Shown piece after piece: positions 21,993 to 32,851 of a stretch of 64,000 nucleotides of DNA (the first letter of the stretch is position 1; every line of letters begins with the position of its first letter). Position numbers and translations under genes: made by a program. This DNA is from a virus: positions 19,297 through 83,296 of the IMG/VR virus record IMGVR_UViG_3300023181_000004; one strand, written 5' to 3'. The notes below the pieces were generated by a model that was given only the letters and a program-made list of their open reading frames with translations, searched no databases and was not told the DNA's origin.

Positions 21993-22375
21993 TGACCCAG
22001 CTCTATATCCCGCAGATCGGCGATCTCATTCGCCTGACCGCGCCGCTGACGATCTCGATCGCCGAGACCAACAACGCGTGGGGCAACAACGTGAACGACA
22101 ATTCGTTCTGGCGTATCAACCACGCGGACCAGCCTTGGGACTACCAGCAGTCGCGGTTCATCACCGACGCCACGTTGGAGGTGGGGACGGTCCTCGCCTT
22201 CCGGCGCTACCATGTCAGCGTCCACGCCAAGACGAACGACGTCGAGGTGTCGATCTTCGCCGCTCCGCGCGCCGACCTGACGCCGAAAAAGAACGGCGGC
22301 AGGGGCTTGATGCTCAAGCTGGTTCTTCCCACCTCGGTCTTGAACCGCATCGAATATGAGAAAGTGGATCCCTGA
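21992..22375 (+). CDS. Hypothetical phage protein, paralog of 1678..2148
   Basis: TGATG coupling; GGAGG RBS. Confidence 0.65.
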   Translation: MTQLYIPQIGDLIRLTAPLTISIAETNNAWGNNVNDNSFWRINHADQPWDYQQSRFITDATLEVGTVLAFRRYHVSVHAKTNDVEVSIFAAPRADLTPKKNGGRGLMLKLVLPTSVLNRIEYEKVDP

Positions 22376-22962
22376 TGTTCAAGAAACTCGATAGCGCCAT
22401 CGCCTTCGCAGCGATCGCCCACGCCGGGCAGGTTCGGAAATTCACCGGCCTGCCCTACATCCTCCACCCGCTCGCGGTCATGGAAATCCTCCACGCTCAC
22501 GCTGCGATCGTCACCGAGGACGAGCTTATCGCCGCGGTGCTGCACGACGTGGTCGAGGACACGCAGGTCACCATCAAGGACGTCGAGCGCCGCTTCGGCA
22601 GCACGGTCGCCGGCTTGGTCTTCGACCTGACGGATCAGTTCATGGATCCGAAGCTCGGCAATCGGCGCGAGCGCAAGGAGAAGGAGCGCGCGCGGCTCGC
22701 GACGATCAGTCCGCAGGCGCAGTCGATCAAATACGCCGACCTGATCCACAACACCACCTCGATCGTCCCGAACGACCCCGACTTCGCTCGCGTCTATCTC
22801 AAAGAGAAGGCAGCGCTGCTGGAGGTTATGACGGAGGGCGACGAGATCCTCTACCGGCTGGTGCACGAGTCGCTCCAAGCCGGACAAGCCGCCCTCGTTC
22901 AACACGCACTGGAGAAAGCCGATGAGCACACCCCCTCCCGCTCCCCCGCCGCGGCGGCCTGA
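22375..22962 (+). CDS. Small alarmone hydrolase-like HD protein (SpoT-HD/Mesh1 family)
   Basis: AHAGQVRK..PYILHPLAV..AAVLHDVVEDT..FG..V..LTD..IKYADLIHN. Confidence 0.85.
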   Translation: MFKKLDSAIAFAAIAHAGQVRKFTGLPYILHPLAVMEILHAHAAIVTEDELIAAVLHDVVEDTQVTIKDVERRFGSTVAGLVFDLTDQFMDPKLGNRRERKEKERARLATISPQAQSIKYADLIHNTTSIVPNDPDFARVYLKEKAALLEVMTEGDEILYRLVHESLQAGQAALVQHALEKADEHTPSRSPAAAA

Positions 22963-23062
22963 ACCGCTGCCGGCCAAGATCGTCAGCCACATGACGCCGA
23001 CGCAGTACCGCGTGCTGCAGGCGTCGACGAAGTCGCTCGACAACCTGCTCAAGGGTCACTGA
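22922..23062 (+). CDS. Small Pro-rich hypothetical protein (46 aa)
   Basis: GGAGA RBS; fills the gap; below ORF-track cutoff. Confidence 0.4.
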   Translation: MSTPPPAPPPRRPEPLPAKIVSHMTPTQYRVLQASTKSLDNLLKGH

Positions 23063-23063
23063 T

Positions 23064-23792
23064 ATGGATTATATTCTCGCCTCCGATCTGCACATGGACA
23101 CCGGCCACGCCGGTGTCCCGTTGCGGACGATGGACTGGGGCAATGCGATCACGCCGATCCTGATCGCCGGCGACCTCGGCAATGGCCTCGGCAACTTCGG
23201 CTTCATCGAGAAGCTGCGACGCAAAGGCCACACCGTGTTCCTGACCGACGGCAACCACGAGCACTACGCCAACAAGGCGCAGAAGCGCTCGCTGATGGAA
23301 ACCGAGCTGGCCTTCCAGCGGCTCGCCGGTCACCCGTCGGTGGTTCAGCTGCGCAGCGGCCTCTACCTCATCATGTGCAACGGCTGGTACGTCGTCGAGG
23401 ACGAAGAGCACTGGCAGAACTACATGAACGACAGCCGCCACGGCGCACTGTCGGCCGAGGTGGTGAACGCCGCCGCTCGGCGCCACGCCGACTTCGTCGC
23501 GGCCTCGCTGATGCGCTTGCCGCACGACAGCAAGGCGATCGTGATGACGCACACGGTGCCGTGTGAGCAGAGCCTCGACCCGCGCTTCGTCGGCTCGGCC
23601 GGCAATCCGTATTATTGGAACCCGCACATGGAGCGGGTGCTGATCGCGGGGCGTGACTCGATCGCGGCGTGGCATCACGGCCACACCCATTTCCCGATGA
23701 ACATTGTCCACGAGGGCGTGAAGATCATCACGAACCCGCGCGGCTATCCTGGAGAGGTGCAATCATGGCGACCACTGGCCTTAACGATCTGA
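23064..23792 (+). CDS. Calcineurin-like metallophosphoesterase
   Basis: SDLH, AGD, GNHE, TH, HGHTH, NPRGY. Confidence 0.85.
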   Translation: MDYILASDLHMDTGHAGVPLRTMDWGNAITPILIAGDLGNGLGNFGFIEKLRRKGHTVFLTDGNHEHYANKAQKRSLMETELAFQRLAGHPSVVQLRSGLYLIMCNGWYVVEDEEHWQNYMNDSRHGALSAEVVNAAARRHADFVAASLMRLPHDSKAIVMTHTVPCEQSLDPRFVGSAGNPYYWNPHMERVLIAGRDSIAAWHHGHTHFPMNIVHEGVKIITNPRGYPGEVQSWRPLALTI

Positions 23793-24688
23793 ACGACATC
23801 CCGCGCGCATGGCGCTCGGCACTTGCGTCAATCCAGACGCTGGCGCCCGAGGCGGTCATCGCCGGCGGGTGTTTGCGGGACCGCGAGCACGGGGTGAAAG
23901 TCAAGGATATCGACATTTTCGTGCCATGCGAGAGCGTGGACAGCCATGAGGGCAAGCTGTTCGAGCAGCGGATGAAGAACGACGGGTGGCAGGACGTGCA
24001 GACCTTGCACGACGAGAGCTATAACGGCTCGCGTATCTCCCGCTCGATCGAGACGATGTTCCCCGGCTGTCCGCCGATCAATATCATCGTCATGCCCTAT
24101 GCATTGATCGAATTCGACTTCGGCATCTGTCAGATCGAGTTCAACGGCAAGCGTATCCTGCGCACCCGCGACTACAACATCGACTTCCGGGCCAAGCAGT
24201 TCCGACTGGTGCCCAAGGTCGGCGATGCCGAGTTCGTGCGGTCGCTGAACCGCTGGGCGCGGCTCAAGGAGAAGTACGAAGGATGGAAGCTCAACCTCGG
24301 AAGCCGGGCGGAGCAGCCGGGCACGATCACCGGTTACATCGATTACGCCTCGGGCGGTCCGCTCAACATGCCGGGGGTGCGCACCTTGGCACAAGCGATG
24401 ACGATGGCGAAAACAACGCAACTGGCGCCACCACGCACAGCCGACATGATCCACACTCTCAACGATCTGTCCGGTCACGGACCCGGCGAGTATATCGTGG
24501 ACCGAGCGATTGCGGAACGACTAGCCAGAGAGACGACGGCACAGATCATCGGCCAACACCGCAACAGCCACGGCGTTGTGGTCAAAGTGGACGACAAAGC
24601 GGTGATACCGATGCGGAAAATCGTCGAGGACATGCTGGTGGTGCGGGATCGGCTGTCGCGGAAGTACACGTCGCCCGGCCAACCCTAA
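23765..24688 (+). CDS. CCA-adding/poly(A) polymerase head-like nucleotidyltransferase
   Basis: VIAGGCLRD..KDIDIF; FDFGICQI. Confidence 0.7.
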   Translation: MATTGLNDLNDIPRAWRSALASIQTLAPEAVIAGGCLRDREHGVKVKDIDIFVPCESVDSHEGKLFEQRMKNDGWQDVQTLHDESYNGSRISRSIETMFPGCPPINIIVMPYALIEFDFGICQIEFNGKRILRTRDYNIDFRAKQFRLVPKVGDAEFVRSLNRWARLKEKYEGWKLNLGSRAEQPGTITGYIDYASGGPLNMPGVRTLAQAMTMAKTTQLAPPRTADMIHTLNDLSGHGPGEYIVDRAIAERLARETTAQIIGQHRNSHGVVVKVDDKAVIPMRKIVEDMLVVRDRLSRKYTSPGQP

Positions 24689-25006: not shown

Positions 25007-25612
25007 ATGACAATTGATCTTCTTGAAATAGTGGGTCGGTTCCTCGATGGGGCTGATAATCGAGACGAACTTCTGGTGGCACACGACGTGCTAACCAAGG
25101 GGTATCGTCTTGTTGATGATCATGCCGAGTTGCCACTGACGCGCGGACAATGGGCCAAGGTGTCTTTGGACGACCTTCCTCGCTTGTTGGAGCATAAGTG
25201 GTTCTGTATCGGCGACGGAAGTCGCGCTCATCCTTTTGTTGCCCGAGCAAAGATCAGTGGCGCAGGCGTGGCGATGGCTCGCTTCGTTCTTGAGATGACT
25301 GATCCAGATCTGATTGCCGACCATCGCGACTGGAACACGCTTAACAATCAACGTAATAATCTTCGAGCGGTGAATAAGCTGCAAAGCAGTCAATACCGTC
25401 GAGGTTGGAAACGAAAGAATACCACCAGCGGCTCTCCTTTCAAAGGGGTGTACGGAAAAGAAGGACGATGGCGTTCGGTAATAAAATACGAAGGTAAACC
25501 TATTCATTTAGGTTATTTCAAAACAGAAACAGAAGCTGCTCAAGCATACGATGCAGCTGTGGAGAAATATCATGGCGAATACGCCGCAAGAAACTATCCC
25601 GCAGCTTCGTGA
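25007..25612 (+). mobile_element. Free-standing HNH-AP2 homing endonuclease
   Basis: DHRDWNTLNNQRNNLR (HNH); SPFKGV..WRSVI..HLGYF..AAQAYDAA (AP2); low GC. Confidence 0.85.
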
Positions 25613-27272
25613 AAAACAAGTTGGGCAGCTGGCGTTCTACATAGGCCATCCGAAGTGCTTGGATCTTAGCGATCCAGGAACTGGAAAGACCGCTCCGTGT
25701 TGCGTGTATTCATATATGATGTGGAACCGTGGCCAGAAGAAAACTCTGTGGTCTATGCCGAAGAGCTTATTGAAAAAAAATCTGCGCGAGATGGTCCGCT
25801 TCACCGAGTTCAAGGTGGCCAATCCCAAGAAGTACACGCCAGGCGACGACGTGGTGATCCTCCACACCGACCGCGCCACGCTAACGCAGAACTGGACCGG
25901 TCCCACGATCGCTTCCGAGCGCAAGCGCAGCGGCTTCAAGTGCCGCCTGCCCGGCTCGACCACCGAGACCAGCTCGATCGAGCTGGCCGATATGGCCAAG
26001 GCACGTGGGCTAGGACCGATCAAGCTCGGCTACCTCGCCGAGGACGGCAAGTGGTATCTGCTGAATGGCAAGGGCGGGCACGATGAGAAGCCCGACGGCT
26101 GGGTGATCGTCGACCCTCTGCTCGGGCCGGACGGCAAGCCGCAGAAGGCGACGCGCGCCGACCCCGAGATGTTCAAGGATTTGATCGCCGCGGCGGCGCA
26201 GGACGGCGCCAAGGTGGTGATCTGCACCTTCGCATTCATGTCGGCGCACTGGAAGCGCGTGCTCGACGCGTTCCCCGACATCGATCTGTTGCTCGTCGAC
26301 GAGCTGCACATGGGCTACGGCGGGCTGGAGAGCAAGCAGACCGAGTCCTTCTACTTCGTCAACAAGCGCGTCAGCCGCTTCGTCGGCATGACCGGCACGC
26401 TCATCAACGGGCGGCTGGACACGGCCTTCCCGGCGATCCACGTCATCGAGCCGCGCTACTACGGCTCGCACATGGGCTTCTACTTCGAGCACGTTCAGGC
26501 GATGGACGACTATGGCCGCCCGATCCGCTGGAAGAACGAGGCTAAGCTCTCGGCGATCATCAACAAGCACTCCATCCGTCGGACCTTCGAGGAGGTCTAC
26601 GGCAAGGAGGACGTGGTGTTCTTCGTCGAAGAGATCGAGATGCACGAGAAGGTGCGCGAGGCCTACGACGTCTTCCACGAGACGGCCATCCTCGAACTGC
26701 AGGACGGCCGGGTGCTGGACGGCAGCATGGTTGGTGTAGCGCAGATGCGCGCACGTCAGATCATGGCGCATCCCGAGACGATGATCGCCGAGATCCCGAA
26801 ATGGACCGAGAAGGACGAGCGCCTGATGATCCACCTTGCCAAGGGCAAGCAGACCTTGGTGTTCGCTGCCCTGCAACCCGAGCAGGAGCGTCTACTGCGT
26901 CTGTGTGAGGAGCTTGGCCTCCGTGCTGCCCTGATCAACGCCAACGTGTCTGGTGCGGCTCGCAGCCGCATTGACGAGGCCGCGCAGCGCGGCGAGCTGG
27001 ATGTCATCGTGGCGTCGGGACCGACGACTGCCGTGGGGTACAACTGGGAGATGTTCGACCTCGTGATCTTCGTGTCCATCGATTTTATGGACGTGAATAT
27101 ATTACAGGCATATCGCCGGGCCAGCCGCGGCACGCGAACGAAGGCGCTCCACGTCGTGTTCTTCAAGTACGAGGACTCGATCGACGATCGCATGTACGAG
27201 ATCGTGAAAGAGAAATCGGCGCTGGCCAATCGGGTCGACAGCACGCGGCCGGTGCTCGACTTCACTTCCTAA
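25572..27272 (+). CDS. Superfamily 2 (SNF2-like) helicase
   Basis: DPGTGKT, VDELH, MTGT, GYN, QAYRRASR. Confidence 0.85.
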   Translation: MANTPQETIPQLREKQVGQLAFYIGHPKCLDLSDPGTGKTAPCCVYSYMMWNRGQKKTLWSMPKSLLKKNLREMVRFTEFKVANPKKYTPGDDVVILHTDRATLTQNWTGPTIASERKRSGFKCRLPGSTTETSSIELADMAKARGLGPIKLGYLAEDGKWYLLNGKGGHDEKPDGWVIVDPLLGPDGKPQKATRADPEMFKDLIAAAAQDGAKVVICTFAFMSAHWKRVLDAFPDIDLLLVDELHMGYGGLESKQTESFYFVNKRVSRFVGMTGTLINGRLDTAFPAIHVIEPRYYGSHMGFYFEHVQAMDDYGRPIRWKNEAKLSAIINKHSIRRTFEEVYGKEDVVFFVEEIEMHEKVREAYDVFHETAILELQDGRVLDGSMVGVAQMRARQIMAHPETMIAEIPKWTEKDERLMIHLAKGKQTLVFAALQPEQERLLRLCEELGLRAALINANVSGAARSRIDEAAQRGELDVIVASGPTTAVGYNWEMFDLVIFVSIDFMDVNILQAYRRASRGTRTKALHVVFFKYEDSIDDRMYEIVKEKSALANRVDSTRPVLDFTS

Positions 27273-27347: not shown

Positions 27348-27731
27348 ATGATGGATGTTCTAGATAAACCGCCGGGCACCGCCGGGCCTCCGACGCTCCC
27401 GCCCTTCCTACGCAAGCGCGGCGGAGGCGGCCGACCAAAGTGGGTGATCTTGCCGGATCTCATGCTTGCTGAGCAGGCCACGACCCTCTTGGATCGGGAA
27501 CATAACTGGATCACTCTGGCCTATCGCTGGATGATCCGGCTCAATACGGAGACGTGGGAGGGCGAGCGTGCCTTCGTCCACACTCGCGTCTACCGGCAGT
27601 GGCTGGAGACCTACGAGGCCAAGGATGGCCTGCCGCCGCACATCTGCTTCGGCGGTGCCATCGAGGCTCGCGATGCCGATTTAACGTTCTATCCACGGTG
27701 GGTAGAATATGCGAAGGAGACGTTCTGCTAA
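27348..27731 (+). CDS. Hypothetical protein
   Basis: AAGGAG RBS. Confidence 0.6.
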   Translation: MMDVLDKPPGTAGPPTLPPFLRKRGGGGRPKWVILPDLMLAEQATTLLDREHNWITLAYRWMIRLNTETWEGERAFVHTRVYRQWLETYEAKDGLPPHICFGGAIEARDADLTFYPRWVEYAKETFC

Positions 27732-27737
27732 TCGGCA

Positions 27738-27766
27738 TTGACAGGTTCGTTCGGAGTTCCTAGATC
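27738..27766 (+). promoter_or_regulatory. Sigma70-type promoter for the tmRNA locus
   Basis: TTGACA-17 bp-TAGATC immediately upstream of the acceptor piece. Confidence 0.7.
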
Positions 27767-27771
27767 ACGCA

Positions 27772-28038
27772 TCCGGCCTCGGCCGGGCTGCTGGAGAACA
27801 CGCGGGGGGCAGTACCTCGCCGCCTCCACCATAGCCAGTGCCTTGGCACCCCTGCTTTAACGTGACGTCCGAGGGGAGTTGAGGAGCGCACACTGGCTTT
27901 GATGGGGGCGAAATAGGATCGACTCTCCGTGCGGTAGAATGTAAATGCGAATGACAATGGTGAGGCCGTGAGCCTCCGACTGGCAGCGTAACTGCACAGG
28001 GGCCTGACCGAGAGCCTGGCAACATAATCTCGGTCACC
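27772..28038 (+). ncRNA. ssrA: Circularly permuted two-piece tmRNA: acceptor piece ~27772-27831, intervening segment 27832-27903, coding piece 27904-~28038; tag ANDNGEAVSLRLAA*
   Basis: GGCAGTA T-loop followed by CGCCTCC-A-CCA; GGGGGCGAAATAGGATCGAC 5' end; acceptor stem with G3:U70; tag frame 27947-27991; GAGCCTGGCAACA 3' motif. Confidence 0.9.
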
Positions 28039-28042
28039 TTAT

Positions 28043-28123
28043 GGGAGCGTAGCTCAGTTGGTAGAGCATGGCACGTCAAAAGGCTCTGGTCGAAGGTTCG
28101 AGTCCTTCCGCTCCCCGCAACCA
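28043..28123 (+). tRNA. tRNA-like element with intact acceptor, D and T arms but non-pairing anticodon arm (identity undetermined)
   Basis: GGGAGCG/CGCTCCC, GCTC/GAGC, GAAGG-TTCGAGT-CCTTC; anticodon stem TGGCA/AGGCT pairs poorly. Confidence 0.6.
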
Positions 28124-28217
28124 AGTTACCCGGTAGTTTTATAATGGAGGTTTGCATGAAGTGATCAGGTCTGTAGAAGGACCACTCTACCAACCCAAAA
28201 CGAACTGGAACTATAAC

Positions 28218-28941: not shown

Positions 28942-29106
28942 ATGCGACGCTTCTTTCTCAGCGAATATGACAAGGGCATGGCTTGGGGCGGAGCCGTTGC
29001 GTTTCTCGCGACTCACACCACGTGGGGCGGCTTAGTTGTAGCTCTCGCCATATGGCTAACGACCCGAGTGAGCTTCGCCACCATCAATTGGTTGTTAAAG
29101 AAATGA
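28942..29106 (+). CDS. Small membrane protein (54 aa)
   Basis: AGGAG RBS; ATGA overlap with exonuclease; hydrophobic. Confidence 0.5.
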   Translation: MRRFFLSEYDKGMAWGGAVAFLATHTTWGGLVVALAIWLTTRVSFATINWLLKK

Positions 29107-29873
29107 TCAATCTCTACGACGGCAACAACATCATGCGCCGCGCCTGCGAGCGGAAGTCCTACATGCCCGGCGAGACGCCGATGTCCATGAGGGTTCGCTT
29201 CGAGACGATGTGCGCCGCCACACCCGGCACGGAGATTTGGGTGTGGGATGGCCGCGACCACAACGAGCGGCGCCGCGAGGTCTATCCCCAGTACAAAACC
29301 AACCGCGAGCCGATGGGCGAGGACATCTTCTCGCAGATCCGCCTGTGGCGTGACGTGCTTAAGCACAGTCCCGCCGTCCAGATCGAGGTGCACGGCTGGG
29401 AAGCCGATGACGTGATCGGCACGCTTGTGCGGCGCAAGCCGCACCTGTTCACCGTGCACACCAACGACATGGACTACGGCCAGATCGCGCACATCTGCAC
29501 CCTCAAGGGCGTGAACATGAAGGGCGTGCCCGCGCACCGCGTACCGCTCTACAAGGCGATGGTCGGCGACACGAGCGACAACATCGACGGCATCCCAGGC
29601 TTTGGGCCGGGCCGCTGGCTGGAGATGGAGCCGCACTGGGACGCCATCCAGCGCGCGATCGTCGCGGGGAACGCAGCCGGTTTCGCTGACCTGCCCTTCA
29701 AGCCGAAGGTCAAGGCATGGCTGGCGGAGGACGCGAACATCAAGCTGCTCCAGCAGATGCTGCTCGTCACCCATTTCCAGAACGTCCCCGACGATGAGCT
29801 GAACGGTGGCATCGTGCAGGGCAAGCTCGACTTCACCGCCGGACATAACCTCTTGTCGGAGTTCTTCTTATGA
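29103..29873 (+). CDS. 5'-3' exonuclease / flap endonuclease
   Basis: DGNN, YPQYKTNR, EADDVIG, DMD, GDTSDNIDGIPGFG. Confidence 0.88.
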   Translation: MINLYDGNNIMRRACERKSYMPGETPMSMRVRFETMCAATPGTEIWVWDGRDHNERRREVYPQYKTNREPMGEDIFSQIRLWRDVLKHSPAVQIEVHGWEADDVIGTLVRRKPHLFTVHTNDMDYGQIAHICTLKGVNMKGVPAHRVPLYKAMVGDTSDNIDGIPGFGPGRWLEMEPHWDAIQRAIVAGNAAGFADLPFKPKVKAWLAEDANIKLLQQMLLVTHFQNVPDDELNGGIVQGKLDFTAGHNLLSEFFL

Positions 29874-30040: not shown

Positions 30041-30258
30041 ACCGCTATGAGATGGCCGTCACCAGCTGCGTGCGGCAGGCCGTAGCGGAGAAGCTCTCCG
30101 CCGAGCAGATCAACACGCCGTTGGTTGAGCAGCTGGCGGTCATCCTTGCTGGTACGGCAGAAGCCACGGGCGCGCGTATCGACGATCTTGTAGAAATCGT
30201 CCGGCATCAGCTGGACCAAAGGGTAGCACATCATGTCAATCAAATCCGTTCTCGTTGA
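30037..30258 (+). CDS. Small hypothetical protein
   Basis: GAGG RBS, GTG start. Confidence 0.45.
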   Translation: MNRYEMAVTSCVRQAVAEKLSAEQINTPLVEQLAVILAGTAEATGARIDDLVEIVRHQLDQRVAHHVNQIRSR

Positions 30259-32851
30259 CAATCGCAACGTCAAGACCGTGCTGCCGGGCATCCTCGCGGA
30301 ACTGGCGGAGGCACGGCTGTATGGTCTCGACTGCGAGACCACCGACGTGGAGACGCGGCACGAGGGGCTGAACGTCTACAACAATGCCACGCGGCTGGTC
30401 TTCGACCACCGCCGCACGACGATGACGGGCTTCTCGACCTACGTCGAAGGCAGCGACACCGCCTATTATTTCAACCTCGCGCACGCGGACGTGGCCAACC
30501 GTCTTCATCCCGCGATCGTGAAGATCGTGCTGGACGCTGTCAGCGACAAGGCGATCGGCGTGGCCCACAACCTGCCGTTCGAGCTGGTCATGTTCAAGCA
30601 GTGCCACGACATCGACCTGCGCAACATGGTCTGCACCCTGCAGATGGCCGTGTCACACCACGGCCCTGACGAATATGACATCGGTGAGTTCTATCGTGCT
30701 GGCCTGCCGAAGGAGTTCCACAAGATCGCCGTGCAGGTCATCAAGGACGAGTGGGCCAACGGCAGCGGCGCTGATCGGGAGCTGCTTGGCAAGTTCATTG
30801 CCAAGGAAAGCAAGGCCGCTCACTCTTACAACGGCTTCACCAAGTCCATTTCGATGGGCTATTCGTTGAAGAACCTGACTAAGAGCCGCTTCAAGGTCGA
30901 GCAGACCACCTTCAAGGAGGTGCTCGGCGACAAGACGCACATGGGTCAACTCACCGGCGACGAGGTGGTCGTGTACGGTGCCGACGACGCCTATTGGGCG
31001 GTGAAGCATTACCGCTGGATGTTCGACGATCTCATCAAGAACAAGCCGCACGTCCTCAAGGCATTCTTCACGCAAGAGAACCCGATGGTCTATCTCTACG
31101 CCGACGCGTGGCGTGAGGGCATCCGGCTCGACCTCGATCAGGTGTTCAAGCGCCGTGACGTCGAGCGTAGCGACATGGCTAAGCTGCTGCGCGCGTTCAA
31201 GGCACGCGTGCGCGCGGCGTTGCCTTTCCCTGCGGAACCGCACCCCGACCTGCTGCGCAAGGAGCTGTCGTGGTATCCCAAGGGCTGGGAGAAGAAGCGC
31301 AAGCAGATCATCGATTGGGCCATGTCGGCCGATAGCGACGATGATTTCACACAGTGCTTTCAGGTCTCGAACCCAATCGGCAACGCGTGGGCCGAAGAAA
31401 AGAAGACCAAGGTGCCGGCGTCCGGCAAGCTCAACATCGTCTATTACCACGCCATGCGCACGATCATGTACGATCTGTTGCGCGTGCCGATGCAGTATGA
31501 CGAGGGCAGCGTCGCGTCCGACAAGGAAGCACGCGGTCGCATCCGTGAGAAACTCGACGGTGAGGTGCCGGACAGTGCCGAGCAGGCTGCAGAGCTGGAG
31601 AACACCAAGCAGATCATGCGTGACCTGCAGTCGATGGCCGATATCGAGCAGCGTGTGAAGCTGTATCTCACGCCGTACACCCAGCTCATGGATCCGGAGA
31701 CCAGTCGTGTATATCCCTCTCTTTCCTCACAACTTGCAACCCGCCGACTGGCTACTTCGTTTCCAAATCCTATGCAGCTTGCCAGATCGGGTGACAGCGC
31801 CTACATTCGATCCTTCTATCTTGGCGACGCCGACGACCATGTCGTTATCTCCGCAGACTGGTCGGCGATCGAGCTTGTCTTGATCGGTGATATGGCCGGC
31901 GGGCAGGGCGGCTTCAAGAAGATCTACGGCCAGCTCCCCTACGGCGATATGCACAGCGGCAGCGCGGTCGATGCGCTCTCGGTAAAGACGCTCGTCGGCC
32001 TCACCGAGGCCGAGTTCAAGGAATTCAAGTTCGGCAACAACCCGAACGGGCGCCCGCTCAAGGACTTCTCGGGCCGCGACCTGACGCCGCAGGACTTCCA
32101 CAAGTGGGCGCGCGGCACCGCGATCGGCAAAGGCATCAACTTCGGCTATTGGTATTCGGGTGCCTGCTCGACGGTCGCGAACAACCTCGGCCTGTCGGAC
32201 ACGGAGCACTGGGAGCTGGTCGATAAATACCGCGAGCGCTTCCCCGACGAGGAGCACTGGCGTGTCGCCTTACAGGACGAGGCCAGCATGAATGGCTTCA
32301 TCACCCTGCCGGACGGGCACCAGCGCAACCGCTTCGAGTGCACCTCGGCGTGGCGGCAGGCGATGCTCCGCAAGTTCTCGGACCTGTCGGCCAGTCCGTA
32401 TCTCGGCGACTATGCCGAGACGGCATGCAAGCGGATCCAAGCCCGCGGTCGCAATCAGGTCGTCAACGCCATGATCCAGGGGACGTGCGCGACGCTCGCC
32501 AAGCGCTCGCTGCTGAACCTGATCAAGACGGCGACCGGACTGCAGTATCGCCTGATGATGCCGATCCACGACGAGCTGGTGTTCAGCGTCCACAAGAGCG
32601 ACGTGATGGCCTTCATCCCGCTGCTGCGCGAGGCGATGCAGAGCCACCACGATATCGTGAAGCACTTCCCGCTGAACTGCACCGTGGCGATGGGCCGAAC
32701 CTTCCGTCCCTTCGACGAGAACAATCCTGCCATGTCGCAGATCGAGCTGGATGAAGCGCAGATCATCCCCGGTATCGTTGACAAAGAACTCAAGGGTTCT
32801 AAACTGTCGGATGATAAAGTCGCTGAACTCTTGGAGTATATGTTCGCATGA
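30233..32851 (+). CDS. Family A DNA polymerase with 3'-5' exonuclease domain
   Basis: DCET, AHNLPFE, YGADDA; ADWSAIEL (motif A), KGINFGYWY (B), NAMIQG, IHDEL (C). Confidence 0.9.
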   Translation: MSIKSVLVDNRNVKTVLPGILAELAEARLYGLDCETTDVETRHEGLNVYNNATRLVFDHRRTTMTGFSTYVEGSDTAYYFNLAHADVANRLHPAIVKIVLDAVSDKAIGVAHNLPFELVMFKQCHDIDLRNMVCTLQMAVSHHGPDEYDIGEFYRAGLPKEFHKIAVQVIKDEWANGSGADRELLGKFIAKESKAAHSYNGFTKSISMGYSLKNLTKSRFKVEQTTFKEVLGDKTHMGQLTGDEVVVYGADDAYWAVKHYRWMFDDLIKNKPHVLKAFFTQENPMVYLYADAWREGIRLDLDQVFKRRDVERSDMAKLLRAFKARVRAALPFPAEPHPDLLRKELSWYPKGWEKKRKQIIDWAMSADSDDDFTQCFQVSNPIGNAWAEEKKTKVPASGKLNIVYYHAMRTIMYDLLRVPMQYDEGSVASDKEARGRIREKLDGEVPDSAEQAAELENTKQIMRDLQSMADIEQRVKLYLTPYTQLMDPETSRVYPSLSSQLATRRLATSFPNPMQLARSGDSAYIRSFYLGDADDHVVISADWSAIELVLIGDMAGGQGGFKKIYGQLPYGDMHSGSAVDALSVKTLVGLTEAEFKEFKFGNNPNGRPLKDFSGRDLTPQDFHKWARGTAIGKGINFGYWYSGACSTVANNLGLSDTEHWELVDKYRERFPDEEHWRVALQDEASMNGFITLPDGHQRNRFECTSAWRQAMLRKFSDLSASPYLGDYAETACKRIQARGRNQVVNAMIQGTCATLAKRSLLNLIKTATGLQYRLMMPIHDELVFSVHKSDVMAFIPLLREAMQSHHDIVKHFPLNCTVAMGRTFRPFDENNPAMSQIELDEAQIIPGIVDKELKGSKLSDDKVAELLEYMFA

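What the first reader, a model, noticed from the sequence alone, without database searches (positions are those of the whole stretch)
27904..28038. The tmRNA is radically miniaturised: no room for pseudoknot 1
Seen: only 43 nt separate G1 (27904) from the resume codon (27947). After the short helix CTCTCC/GGAGA only about 18 nt (GTGCGGTAGAATGTAAAT) precede the tag. The two pieces total about 195 nt. Established: cellular tmRNAs normally carry pk1 here and have roughly twice this distance to the resume codon. Inference: either a natural minimal tmRNA that is still functional, or a dominant-negative decoy that sequesters SmpB/AlaRS and blocks host trans-translation.
Basis: partly seen in the sequence, partly recalled or inferred. 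Interest (0 to 1): 0.75.

Follow-up and report, generated by a model that had tools for sequence, protein, structure and literature searches.

The report
Phage tmRNA without any pseudoknot
A soil phage carries a half-size, two-piece version of the ribosome-rescue RNA (tmRNA) that lacks the pseudoknot found in sampled bacterial versions yet keeps an intact degradation-tag message, so it is probably a natural minimal working tmRNA.

Summary
Window 27734-28036 is a circularly permuted alpha-type tmRNA gene (Rfam RF01849, 53 bits, cut-off 50) in the replication module of a complete 83-kb phage genome. G1 (27904) lies 43 nt from the resume codon (27947). The Rfam consensus distance is 84 nt, and three bacterial genes gave 84-86 nt.

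There is no room for pk1. Helix P2 is cut to about 11 bp, and an 11-nt A-rich linker runs straight into the tag. After the tag come only helix 5 and one hairpin.

This is not a recent deletion. Five related viral or metagenomic sequences have the same 43-46 nt layout, with compensatory changes in P1, P2, the T arm and the terminal hairpin. All six have a 14-codon tag in which ANDN and the final AA change only synonymously. G3-U70, CCA and the A at -4 are kept in all six.

No sampled Alphaproteobacteria genome had so short a form: 9 of 401 matched the pattern, all by chance, while 245 of 401 matched the longer-range pattern. A separate class at 46-49 nt is common in marine T4-like viral contigs.

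A functional minimal tmRNA is most likely; a decoy is unlikely. No RNA or tagging data exist. I class it as a new variant of a known kind.

The parts
27738..27766 (+). Promoter-like TTGACA (27738-43), 17-nt spacer, TAGATC (27761-66)
   Evidence: Read. TTGAC...CCTAGAT is conserved in 5 of 6 family members; L125 has TTGCGC. The E. coli-type scan did NOT call it, because that scan requires T at the last -10 position. It called 27681-27708 instead. The transcription start is inferred.
27773..27786 (+). 5' hairpin of the acceptor piece (CCGGC-CUCG-GCCGG)
   Evidence: Predicted in 6 of 6 RNAcofold runs. The stem sequence differs between members but stays paired (by eye). It is not in the pair count because MAFFT misaligned it.
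27787..27797 (+). Acceptor-piece strand of helix P2 (GCUGC + UGGAGA)
   Evidence: Pairs with 27924-27935. Of the 11 pairs, 3 change on both sides, and 93.9% of cells are paired.
27802..27820 (+). T arm: 6-bp stem (5 bp in the five relatives), loop GGCAGUA
   Evidence: 5 pairs counted, 100% paired, 1 pair with a change on both sides.
27821..27831 (+). 3' strand of the acceptor stem (CGCCUCC) plus encoded ACCA
   Evidence: Seven pairs with 27904-27910. The G-U pair at position 3 is present in 6 of 6.
27832..27903 (+). Intervening sequence, 72 nt, removed from the mature RNA
   Evidence: Its length is 45-140 nt in the family and it cannot be aligned, unlike the mature parts.
27904..27923 (+). 5' strand of the acceptor stem (GGGGGCG) and D-loop analogue AAAUAGGAUCGAC
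   Evidence: Matches the Rfam consensus at posterior probability '*'.
27924..27935 (+). Coding-piece strand of P2 (UCUCCG, bulged U, GCGGU)
27936..27946 (+). 11-nt purine-rich linker AGAAUGUAAAU, with U at -5 and A at -4; this occupies the place where pk1 normally sits
   Evidence: A at -4 is present in 6 of 6. The 18-nt stretch 27929-46 folds alone at only -0.8 kcal/mol, z = -1.24.
27947..27991 (+). Tag reading frame ANDNGEAVSLRLAA plus TAA stop
27980..27999 (+). Helix 5 (CUGGCAG / CUGC-A-CAG) with the stop codon in its loop
   Evidence: Predicted in the MFE folds of L125 and L372, which share this sequence. There is no covariation: it is identical in 3 of 6, and the other 3 have a different helix.
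28006..28035 (+). Terminal hairpin (GACCGAGA / UCUCGGUC) with the conserved loop GCCUGGCAACAUAA
   Evidence: 8 pairs, 6 of them with changes on both sides. The loop motif matches the Rfam consensus CCuGGCAACAGAA.

Best explanation
This is a working, phage-encoded, two-piece (circularly permuted) tmRNA of the alphaproteobacterial type that has been stripped to its essentials.

Anatomy, shown by sequence and comparison: a complete tRNA-like domain; helix P2 cut from about 18 bp to about 11 bp; no pk1; an 11-nt A-rich linker with A at -4; a 14-codon tag, ANDN...LAA; helix 5 with the stop codon in its loop; and one terminal hairpin. No other pseudoknot is evident.

Mechanism, inferred:
- Host RNA polymerase transcribes the gene from its own promoter, inside the phage replication module.
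- Host tRNA-processing enzymes cut out the 72-nt intervening sequence.
- The two pieces stay together through P1 and P2.
- Host AlaRS charges the RNA through the G3-U70 pair.
- Host SmpB and EF-Tu deliver it to stalled ribosomes. The phage has no SmpB of its own.
- SmpB sets the frame through the A at -4.
- The nascent chain receives a ClpXP-type degron ending in LAA.

The likely benefit to the phage is extra ribosome-rescue capacity during infection, for example when host mRNA decay or RNA-cleaving defences strand ribosomes.
For: The gene is a tmRNA.
- RF01849 scores 53 bits against a cut-off of 50, E = 6.5e-12.
- It lies in a complete 83,296-bp phage genome with terminal repeats, between a helicase, an exonuclease and a DNA polymerase.

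The layout is conserved in a family.
- There are six distinct members: the window, L124, L125 and L126, and L371 and L372.
- Their G1-to-resume distances are 43, 45, 43, 44, 46 and 44 nt.

The structure is under selection.
- Of 183 cells in 31 pairs, 95.1% form standard pairs, against 80.5 +/- 1.9% in shuffles; 0 of 500 shuffles reach the observed value.
- 11 pairs change on both sides, against 6.1 +/- 1.4 in shuffles (0 of 500).
- Sliding the 3' partners by 1-3 columns gives only 40-49% pairing.

The message is under selection.
- All six tags are 14 codons long.
- Codons 1-4 (ANDN) and 13-14 (AA) vary only synonymously.
- Codons 5-11 vary freely, and the stop codon is TAA or TGA.

Functional determinants are kept in 6 of 6 members: the G-U pair at acceptor position 3, the encoded CCA, and A at -4.
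- In E. coli the equivalent A86 is the main determinant of the reading frame, and 11 nt separate pk1 from the resume codon (PMC2481249, passages read).

pk1 is absent.
- The Rfam alignment deletes the pk1 positions.
- The spacer has no fold of its own.

Precedent exists. In E. coli, pk1 can be replaced by a hairpin (Tanner 2006), and a tmRNA lacking pk1 still tags (Wower 2009). Both are as cited in the review PMC3968760 (passages read).
Against: - There is no expression, processing, charging or tagging data. Only one DNA run holds the sequence.
- ARAGORN does not call the gene. The general permuted-tmRNA model RF04321 gives only 35.3 bits against a cut-off of 47.
- The window's T stem has 6 bp rather than 5, which would shift the tRNA elbow. 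The five relatives have 5 bp.
- The inner part of P2 (GCUGC/GCGGU) shows no change on both sides, and 2 of 6 members have a mismatch there.
- The structure was drawn by me from the same six related sequences, so the shuffle control overstates the support.
- The E. coli-type promoter scan did not call the proposed promoter.
- E. coli work found PK1 necessary for tagging (Nameki 2000, as cited in PMC3968760). A 2026 simulation preprint proposes that PK1 anchors the message to the A-site finger (PMC13692277, passages read).
- The host and its tmRNA are unknown.
Confidence: 0.62

Rival explanations
1. Dominant-negative decoy. The RNA binds host SmpB, AlaRS or EF-Tu, or enters stalled ribosomes, but cannot load its message without pk1. 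It would thereby block host trans-translation.
For: - A tRNA-like-domain-only tmRNA exists in mycobacteriophage DS6A, and a similar molecule strongly inhibits tmRNA in E. coli (PMC4131195 and PMC11915505, passages read).
- The phage has no SmpB of its own, so it must draw on the host's.
- PK1 has been reported as necessary in E. coli (PMC3968760).
Against: - A decoy needs only the tRNA-like domain. Here the tag frame, its length (14 codons in 6 of 6), its ANDN start and AA end (synonymous changes only), the A at -4 and the terminal hairpin are all conserved.
- The DS6A form has lost its reading frame; this one has not.
Confidence: 0.13
2. Functional only with a phage helper. The pk1-less RNA would need a phage protein to fold or to load its message. 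One candidate is the conserved 127-aa protein just upstream (27348-27731). Another is the nearby nucleotidyltransferase/phosphoesterase genes.
For: - Homologues of the 127-aa protein lie just upstream of the tmRNA in the window, L125, L126 and L372.
- It has a basic Gly/Arg-rich N-terminus.
- A nucleotidyltransferase and a metallophosphoesterase lie 3-4 kb upstream.
Against: - tblastn found no homologue in L124 or L371, which carry the same tmRNA layout.
- There is no Pfam match.
- The AlphaFold model is of low confidence (pLDDT 60.7).
- No meaningful fold match was found: best Foldseek E = 0.22, best Z = 3.2.
- The link rests on gene neighbourhood alone.
Confidence: 0.12
3. Decaying gene or captured host fragment. 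It would be either a recently deleted, inactive copy of a host ssrA, or an attachment-site remnant left by integration into ssrA.
For: - ssrA is a common integration site, and fragments of it occur in prophages (PMC9004378, passage read).
- Rfam scores are low: 53 bits against 224-312 for three bacterial genes.
Against: - Both pieces, the promoter-like site and the CCA are present.
- Six diverged members keep the same short layout with compensatory changes and an intact tag, while the intervening sequence has diverged beyond alignment.
- The gene sits in the replication module of a genome with terminal repeats, not at a contig or prophage end.
Confidence: 0.04

Closest known systems
Bacterial two-piece tmRNA of Alphaproteobacteria (Rfam RF01849; Caulobacter type, Keiler et al. 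2000, cited in PMC9004378 and PMC11915505)
   Same: Both have the permuted gene order (acceptor piece, intervening sequence, coding piece). Both have the G3-U70 acceptor stem, the GGCxGUA T loop and the AAAUAGGAUCGAC D-loop analogue. Both encode an ANDN...LAA tag and have the CCUGGCAACAGAA terminal loop.
   Different: The phage form has no pk1, a P2 of about 11 bp rather than about 18 bp, and about 47 nt rather than about 82 nt after the stop codon. The mature RNA is about 196 nt against about 290 nt for the consensus, counted from model positions. It scores 53 bits against 224-312.
Two-piece tmRNAs of cultured phages (Melnitz, DSS3P8, RcXuper, RcSimone-Hastad, RcRudolph, Mesorhizobium phage Cp1R7A-A1, Erythrobacter phage XM05, Sinorhizobium phage Phosso)
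   Same: These are also phage-borne, alpha-type, permuted tmRNA genes (PMC9004378).
   Different: All eight examined have a longer spacing. G1 to resume is 82-89 nt, or 68-70 nt under an alternative start of the tag in three of them. The Melnitz value of 82 nt was worked out by hand. None has the 43-46 nt form.
Engineered E. coli tmRNAs with pk1 replaced by a hairpin (Tanner 2006) or removed (Wower 2009), as cited in PMC3968760, PMC2481249 and PMC13692277
   Same: They have no pk1 fold upstream of the tag, yet still tag.
   Different: They are laboratory constructs in a one-piece tmRNA that keeps the full H2 and pk2-pk4. The authors concluded that some stable structure is needed at that position. 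The phage RNA is natural and has only a single-stranded linker there. I saw only what other papers say about these two studies; Wower 2009 is not held in the library.
tRNA-like-domain-only tmRNA of mycobacteriophage DS6A, and jakobid mitochondrial tmRNA
   Same: They are strongly reduced and lack pseudoknots (PMC4131195, PMC11915505, PMC1168896).
   Different: They have no tag reading frame. The phage RNA here keeps a canonical one.
Short alpha-type tmRNAs of low-GC marine T4-like viral contigs (found here; not seen in print)
   Same: They share the plan of P2, then an A-rich linker of about 12 nt with A at -4, then an ANDN tag. G1 to resume is 46-49 nt.
   Different: They occur in unrelated phages: UvsX, a DnaB/gp41-like helicase and thymidylate synthase flank the gene in L253. 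Their GC content is 0.32-0.43, P2 is longer (about 15 bp in L051), and the spacer sequence differs. Whether the shortening is shared or independent was not tested.

Membership tests
Two-piece (permuted) alpha-type tmRNA, Rfam RF01849 | Covariance-model score at or above the curated cut-off | tested here: met
   53 bits against 50 for the window. The relatives score 57-73 bits. The general model RF04321 gives only 35.3 bits against 47 for the window.
Two-piece (permuted) alpha-type tmRNA, Rfam RF01849 | Permuted gene order: acceptor piece ending in CCA, then an intervening sequence, then a coding piece starting at G1 | tested here: met
   CCA ends at 27831, the intervening sequence is 72 nt, and G1 is at 27904.
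Two-piece (permuted) alpha-type tmRNA, Rfam RF01849 | 7-bp acceptor stem with the G3-U70 alanine identity pair, and a T arm with a 7-nt loop | tested here: met
   Seven pairs are present in 6 of 6 members, and the G-U pair at position 3 is present in 6 of 6. The window's T stem has 6 bp instead of 5.
Two-piece (permuted) alpha-type tmRNA, Rfam RF01849 | Helix P2 joining the two pieces | tested here: met
   11 pairs, 3 of them with changes on both sides. It is shorter than the three-segment consensus P2 of 18 pairs shown in the structure line.
Two-piece (permuted) alpha-type tmRNA, Rfam RF01849 | Pseudoknot 1 between P2 and the resume codon | tested here: not met
   Only 11-18 nt are available. 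The Rfam alignment deletes the pk1 positions. The spacer has no fold of its own. The same holds in 6 of 6 family members.
Two-piece (permuted) alpha-type tmRNA, Rfam RF01849 | Tag reading frame starting at an Ala resume codon, ending in a hydrophobic AA degron, with A at -4 | tested here: met
   The tag is ANDNGEAVSLRLAA. All six members have 14 codons, and A at -4 is present in 6 of 6.
Two-piece (permuted) alpha-type tmRNA, Rfam RF01849 | Pseudoknot(s) downstream of the tag | tested here: inconclusive
   Only helix 5 and one hairpin fit into the 47 nt after the stop codon. The folding tools used cannot predict pseudoknots. Candidate loop pairings that I tried by eye were not consistent across members.
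Two-piece (permuted) alpha-type tmRNA, Rfam RF01849 | Alanine charging, SmpB binding and trans-translation activity | not testable with these tools
   This needs experiments. No RNA run is listed for this sequence.
tRNA-like-domain-only decoy tmRNA (phage DS6A type) | No tag reading frame | tested here: not met
   A conserved 14-codon frame is present in 6 of 6 members.

The most novel reading that the evidence does not exclude
Phages of at least two unrelated lineages carry tag-encoding tmRNAs of under 200 nt with no pseudoknot at all. One lineage is high-GC and Seuss-like, from leaf litter. The other is low-GC, T4-like and marine.

These RNAs may be 'open' two-piece molecules whose message hangs from a short P2, instead of closing a pseudoknot ring around the head of the small subunit.

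If they tag proteins, nature has already shown that neither pk1 nor the ring is needed for trans-translation. This family would then be the smallest message-bearing tmRNA known to me.
Probability: 0.45. Interest if true: 0.75.

Novelty: new variant of a known kind. Interest (0 to 1): 0.62.

Why it matters
pk1 is the one pseudoknot long held to matter for tmRNA function. A 274-sequence survey found it lacking only in Oenococcus oeni and one partial chloroplast sequence (PMC1168896, passage read), and current simulations give it an anchoring role (PMC13692277).

A naturally selected tmRNA that keeps the tag but drops pk1, shortens H2 and has no evident pseudoknot ring would be useful in three ways:
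- It is a ready-made minimal system for asking what the ribosome, SmpB and the A-site finger really need.
- It is a compact scaffold for structural work.
- It shows that routine annotation misses such genes. ARAGORN called none of the six correctly, and RF04321 scores the window copy below its cut-off. Phage-borne ribosome-rescue genes are therefore probably under-counted.

Tried and rejected
Searches that gave nothing useful
- The whole-collection genome scan used too loose a pattern. I replaced it with a sample of 401 Alphaproteobacteria.
- blastn against cultured phages found nothing like this tmRNA (tRNA hits only) and nothing like the marine short form. A relaxed search on the 5' end found only phages with longer spacing.
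- Expression: no RNA holder is listed. One DNA run, from a leaf litter metagenome, is probably the source.
- SmpB (PF01668) was not found in the phage genome.

The upstream 127-aa protein
- It has no Pfam family.
- Eight homologues were found, all unnamed.
- The AlphaFold model has pLDDT 60.7.
- Foldseek's best E-value was 0.22 and VIA-align's best Z was 3.2. No function can be claimed.

Structural ideas tried by eye and dropped
- I looked for a pk1 substitute or a ring-closing pairing: the terminal-hairpin loop against the acceptor 5' hairpin, and against the CUG(C/U)UG stretch of P2. The candidate pairings differ from member to member, so I dropped them as unsupported.

Other points
- The E. 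coli-type promoter scan called 27681-27708 and not the conserved TTGACA-N17-TAGATC. I keep the latter on conservation alone.
- I did not use complex prediction, build_rna_model, the search of protein representatives or the protein-atlas search.
- Literature searches for a natural pk1-less or minimal phage tmRNA found none in the held library. Supplements are closed. Table S1 of PMC9004378 and Table S2 and File S1 of PMC11915505 list phage tmRNAs and could include short forms that I could not see.

Full report
WHAT IS THERE

The window is bases 19297-83296 of an 83,296-bp IMG/VR virus record with direct terminal repeats, rated 100% complete. Rfam's alpha_tmRNA model (RF01849) matches 27734-28036 on the + strand at 53 bits against a cut-off of 50, E = 6.5e-12. 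ARAGORN reports only a tRNA at 28043-28116 and no tmRNA. The general permuted-tmRNA model RF04321 gives 35.3 bits against a cut-off of 47.

The gene lies between a helicase (25551-27272), a small protein of unknown function (27348-27731), an exonuclease (28983-29873) and a family-A DNA polymerase (30233-32851). The nearest cultured phage by polymerase is Caulobacter phage Seuss at 41% identity. Seuss has the same gene order but no tmRNA at that spot.

ANATOMY (letters read directly)

- Promoter-like site: TTGACA (27738), 17-nt spacer, TAGATC (27766).
- Hairpin: CCGGC-CUCG-GCCGG (27773-86).
- P2 strand of the acceptor piece: GCUGC-UGGAGA (27787-97).
- T arm: 27802-20.
- Acceptor 3' strand CGCCUCC, then ACCA ending at 27831.
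- Intervening sequence of 72 nt.
- G1 at 27904, in GGGGGCG AAAUAGGAUCGAC.
- P2 strand of the coding piece: UCUCCG-U-GCGGU (27924-35).
- Linker: AGAAUGUAAAU (27936-46).
- Tag: GCG AAU GAC AAU ... GCA GCG UAA, which reads ANDNGEAVSLRLAA (27947-91).
- Helix 5, with the stop codon in its loop (27980-99).
- Terminal hairpin (28006-35), whose loop GCCUGGCAACAUAA matches the consensus of bacterial alpha tmRNAs.

The total depends on unmapped ends.

IS THE SHORT FORM REAL AND OLD?

Searching viral contigs with the protein encoded just downstream gave four syntenic loci. Three of them, L124, L125 and L126, carry alpha_tmRNA at the same position at 67-73 bits. The fourth, L123, starts inside the region and shows only a tRNA-Ile. 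A family-specific pattern scan of metagenome contigs added L371 and L372 (L370 is the L126 contig again).

The six distinct genes have G1-to-resume distances of 43, 45, 46, 43, 44 and 44 nt. Their intervening sequences are 72, 82, 121, 140, 111 and 45 nt long and cannot be aligned.

RNAcofold of the two pieces gives the same structure as the minimum-energy fold for L125 and L372: 5' hairpin, P2 of 11 bp with one bulge, T arm and P1. The other four give variants of it.

I drew a five-helix model on alignment A2, which the tool counted as four helices because P2a and P2b merge. On it:
- 95.1% of 183 cells form standard pairs, against 80.5 +/- 1.9% in shuffles (0 of 500 reach the observed value).
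- 11 of 31 pairs change on both sides, against 6.1 +/- 1.4 in shuffles (0 of 500).
- Sliding the partners by 1-3 columns drops pairing to 40-49%.
- Per helix, the number of pairs with changes on both sides is 3 of 11 in P2, 1 of 5 in the T arm, 1 of 7 in P1, and 6 of 8 in the terminal hairpin.

Two caveats apply. I derived the structure from these same six related sequences. The inner five pairs of P2 show only a one-sided change, and 2 of 6 members have a mismatch there.

IS THERE A pk1 EQUIVALENT?

[quoted passage not shown] All of these linkers are purine-rich. Even without the inner P2 pairs only 17-20 nt remain. The conserved bacterial pk1 core is about 28 nt (rows) and is followed by its own linker. 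The window's 18-nt stretch folds alone at -0.8 kcal/mol, z = -1.24, with 20 of 200 shuffles doing as well. Adding the flanks gives z-scores near 0. Rfam's alignment deletes the pk1 positions. After the stop codon only about 47 nt remain, enough for helix 5 and one hairpin. I found no consistent pairing that would make another pseudoknot, but the tools used cannot predict pseudoknots, so this point is inconclusive.

IS THE MESSAGE UNDER SELECTION?

All six tags are 14 codons long:
- ANDNGEAVSLRLAA (window)
- ANDNDSQVAYALAA (L124 and L371)
- ANDNSEVYHLRLAA (L125)
- ANDNDGVYDARLAA (L372)
- ANDNDTSEVYARAA (L126)

Codons 1, 2, 4, 13 and 14 each use two codons for a single amino acid. Codon 3 is invariant. 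Codons 5-11 vary in amino acid. Codon 12 is Leu in five members and Arg in one. The stop is TAA or TGA. This is the pattern expected if the peptide is made and its ends matter.

The A at -4 is present in 6 of 6 members. In E. coli the equivalent A86 is the main frame determinant, and 11 nt lie between pk1 and the resume codon (PMC2481249, passages read). The G-U pair at acceptor position 3 and the encoded CCA are also present in 6 of 6.

DO BACTERIA HAVE THIS FORM?

I sampled 401 Alphaproteobacteria genomes. A pattern allowing 15-32 nt between GGATCGAC and GCN-AAY-GAY matched 9 genomes. All 9 matches are chance hits with no tmRNA 5' end and no tag. On the same sample, the same pattern with a 33-75 nt gap matched 245 of 401 genomes. 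Most of the 150 rows printed span 79-86 nt and share the conserved pk1 sequence; by eye, about a dozen are chance matches. The remaining 156 genomes matched neither pattern and are uninformative. Two genomes in these tallies, G243 and G043, are unpublished. Three bacterial genes examined in full gave 84, 86 and 84 nt and 224-312 bits. The actual host is unknown.

OTHER PHAGES

Among 120 viral contigs that hold the canonical 20-base 5' end (a capped scan), G1 to the first ANDN-type codon run was distributed as follows:
- 52 nt or less: 10 contigs
- 53-70 nt: 20 contigs
- 71-95 nt: 72 contigs
- more than 95 nt: 2 contigs
- not callable: 16 contigs

A direct scan for short forms (capped), pooled with the viral loci already held, gave 123 pattern matches. 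Of these, 90 had a tmRNA-like 5' end. Five rows are the high-GC family, two of whose contigs were fetched twice. The other 85 are low-GC (0.32-0.43) contigs at 46-49 nt. One of these, L253, is flanked by a UvsX-like recombinase, a DnaB/gp41-like helicase and thymidylate synthase, so it is a T4-like phage. In L051 the fold gives a P2 of about 15 bp followed by a 12-nt A-rich linker.

Eight cultured phages with alpha-type tmRNA all have the longer spacing. So the short plan recurs in uncultured phages and was not seen in the bacteria sampled.

HOW IT MOST LIKELY WORKS

Shown: the anatomy, its conservation, and selection on both the structure and the tag.

Inferred: transcription by host polymerase, excision of the intervening sequence by host tRNA-processing enzymes, alanine charging, and delivery by host SmpB and EF-Tu (no SmpB gene is in the phage). 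Also inferred are frame setting through the A at -4, and tagging with an LAA-type degron.

In reviews, H2 is described as leaning along the small subunit towards the beak, with pk1 next to the A-site finger (PMC3968760). An 11-bp P2 plus an 11-nt linker could plausibly still reach the decoding centre, but this is my geometric guess and not a result.

Engineered E. coli tmRNAs with pk1 replaced by a hairpin or removed still tag (Tanner 2006 and Wower 2009, as cited in PMC3968760 and PMC13692277). That makes a natural pk1-less form credible.

RIVALS

A decoy like the DS6A tRNA-like-domain-only RNA (PMC4131195) does not explain the conserved tag. A helper-dependent RNA is possible but rests on gene neighbourhood only. 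A pseudogene or an attachment-site fragment is contradicted by the six-member conservation.

NOVELTY

Four literature searches and the passages read report no natural phage or bacterial tmRNA that keeps a tag while lacking pk1 altogether. The 2005 survey lists only Oenococcus oeni and a partial Pavlova chloroplast sequence as lacking helix 4 (PMC1168896). Supplementary lists of phage tmRNAs could not be opened. I rate this a new variant of a known kind.

The scan's first readers noted this same stretch twice before (e1-6132261 and e1-6132263), without follow-up.

Noticed in passing
window 28043-28116: A tRNA-like gene lies 6 nt after the tmRNA hairpin. Its acceptor, D and T arms are perfect, but the anticodon stem forms only 3 of 5 pairs. 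ARAGORN calls it Leu-CAA, and Rfam tRNA gives 52 bits with two non-standard pairs. The same slot holds tRNA-Ile(GAT) in L123 and tRNA-Cys(GCA) in L372, and nothing in L124-L126.
   Followed up: partly
window 27802-27820: The T stem of the window's tmRNA has 6 bp, because a G-U pair is inserted on both strands. The five relatives have 5 bp. The effect on the tRNA elbow is unknown.
   Followed up: partly
window 28119-28217: A conserved element of about 90 nt lies between the tmRNA/tRNA and the next gene in all five loci of alignment A1. It has a Shine-Dalgarno-like GGAGG, an ATG that opens a tiny frame, and a hairpin with the loop UGUAGAA. It may be a leader or a regulatory element.
   Followed up: no
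window 27348-27731: A 127-aa protein with a Gly/Arg-rich N-terminus has homologues just upstream of the tmRNA in L125, L126 and L372, but not in L124 or L371. It has no Pfam family. The AlphaFold model is of low confidence and no fold match was found.
   Followed up: yes
L042, L050, L051, L253 and about 80 other viral contigs: Low-GC marine T4-like viral contigs carry alpha-type two-piece tmRNAs with only 46-49 nt from G1 to the resume codon. This is a much larger pk1-less class than the window's family.
   Followed up: partly
L250, L286, L294, L300, L335, L353: Another tmRNA-like form has a different 5' region (..GCCGCCAAGC before GGATCGAC), a 27-nt spacer and short tags such as ANDNHAQHEAA. 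Rfam gave no hit at gathering threshold for L250 or L286.
   Followed up: no
L125 2535-3026; L124, L126, L371, L372: ARAGORN calls a tmRNA in only one of the six family members, and there with a wrong tag (AQGLTREPG...). This family therefore escapes routine annotation.
   Followed up: yes
window 22375-24688: A metallophosphoesterase (PHROG 1649) and a nucleotidyltransferase (PHROG 1614, with a faint PolyA_pol head-domain match) lie 3-5 kb upstream of the tmRNA. I did not test whether they are linked to the tmRNA.
   Followed up: partly
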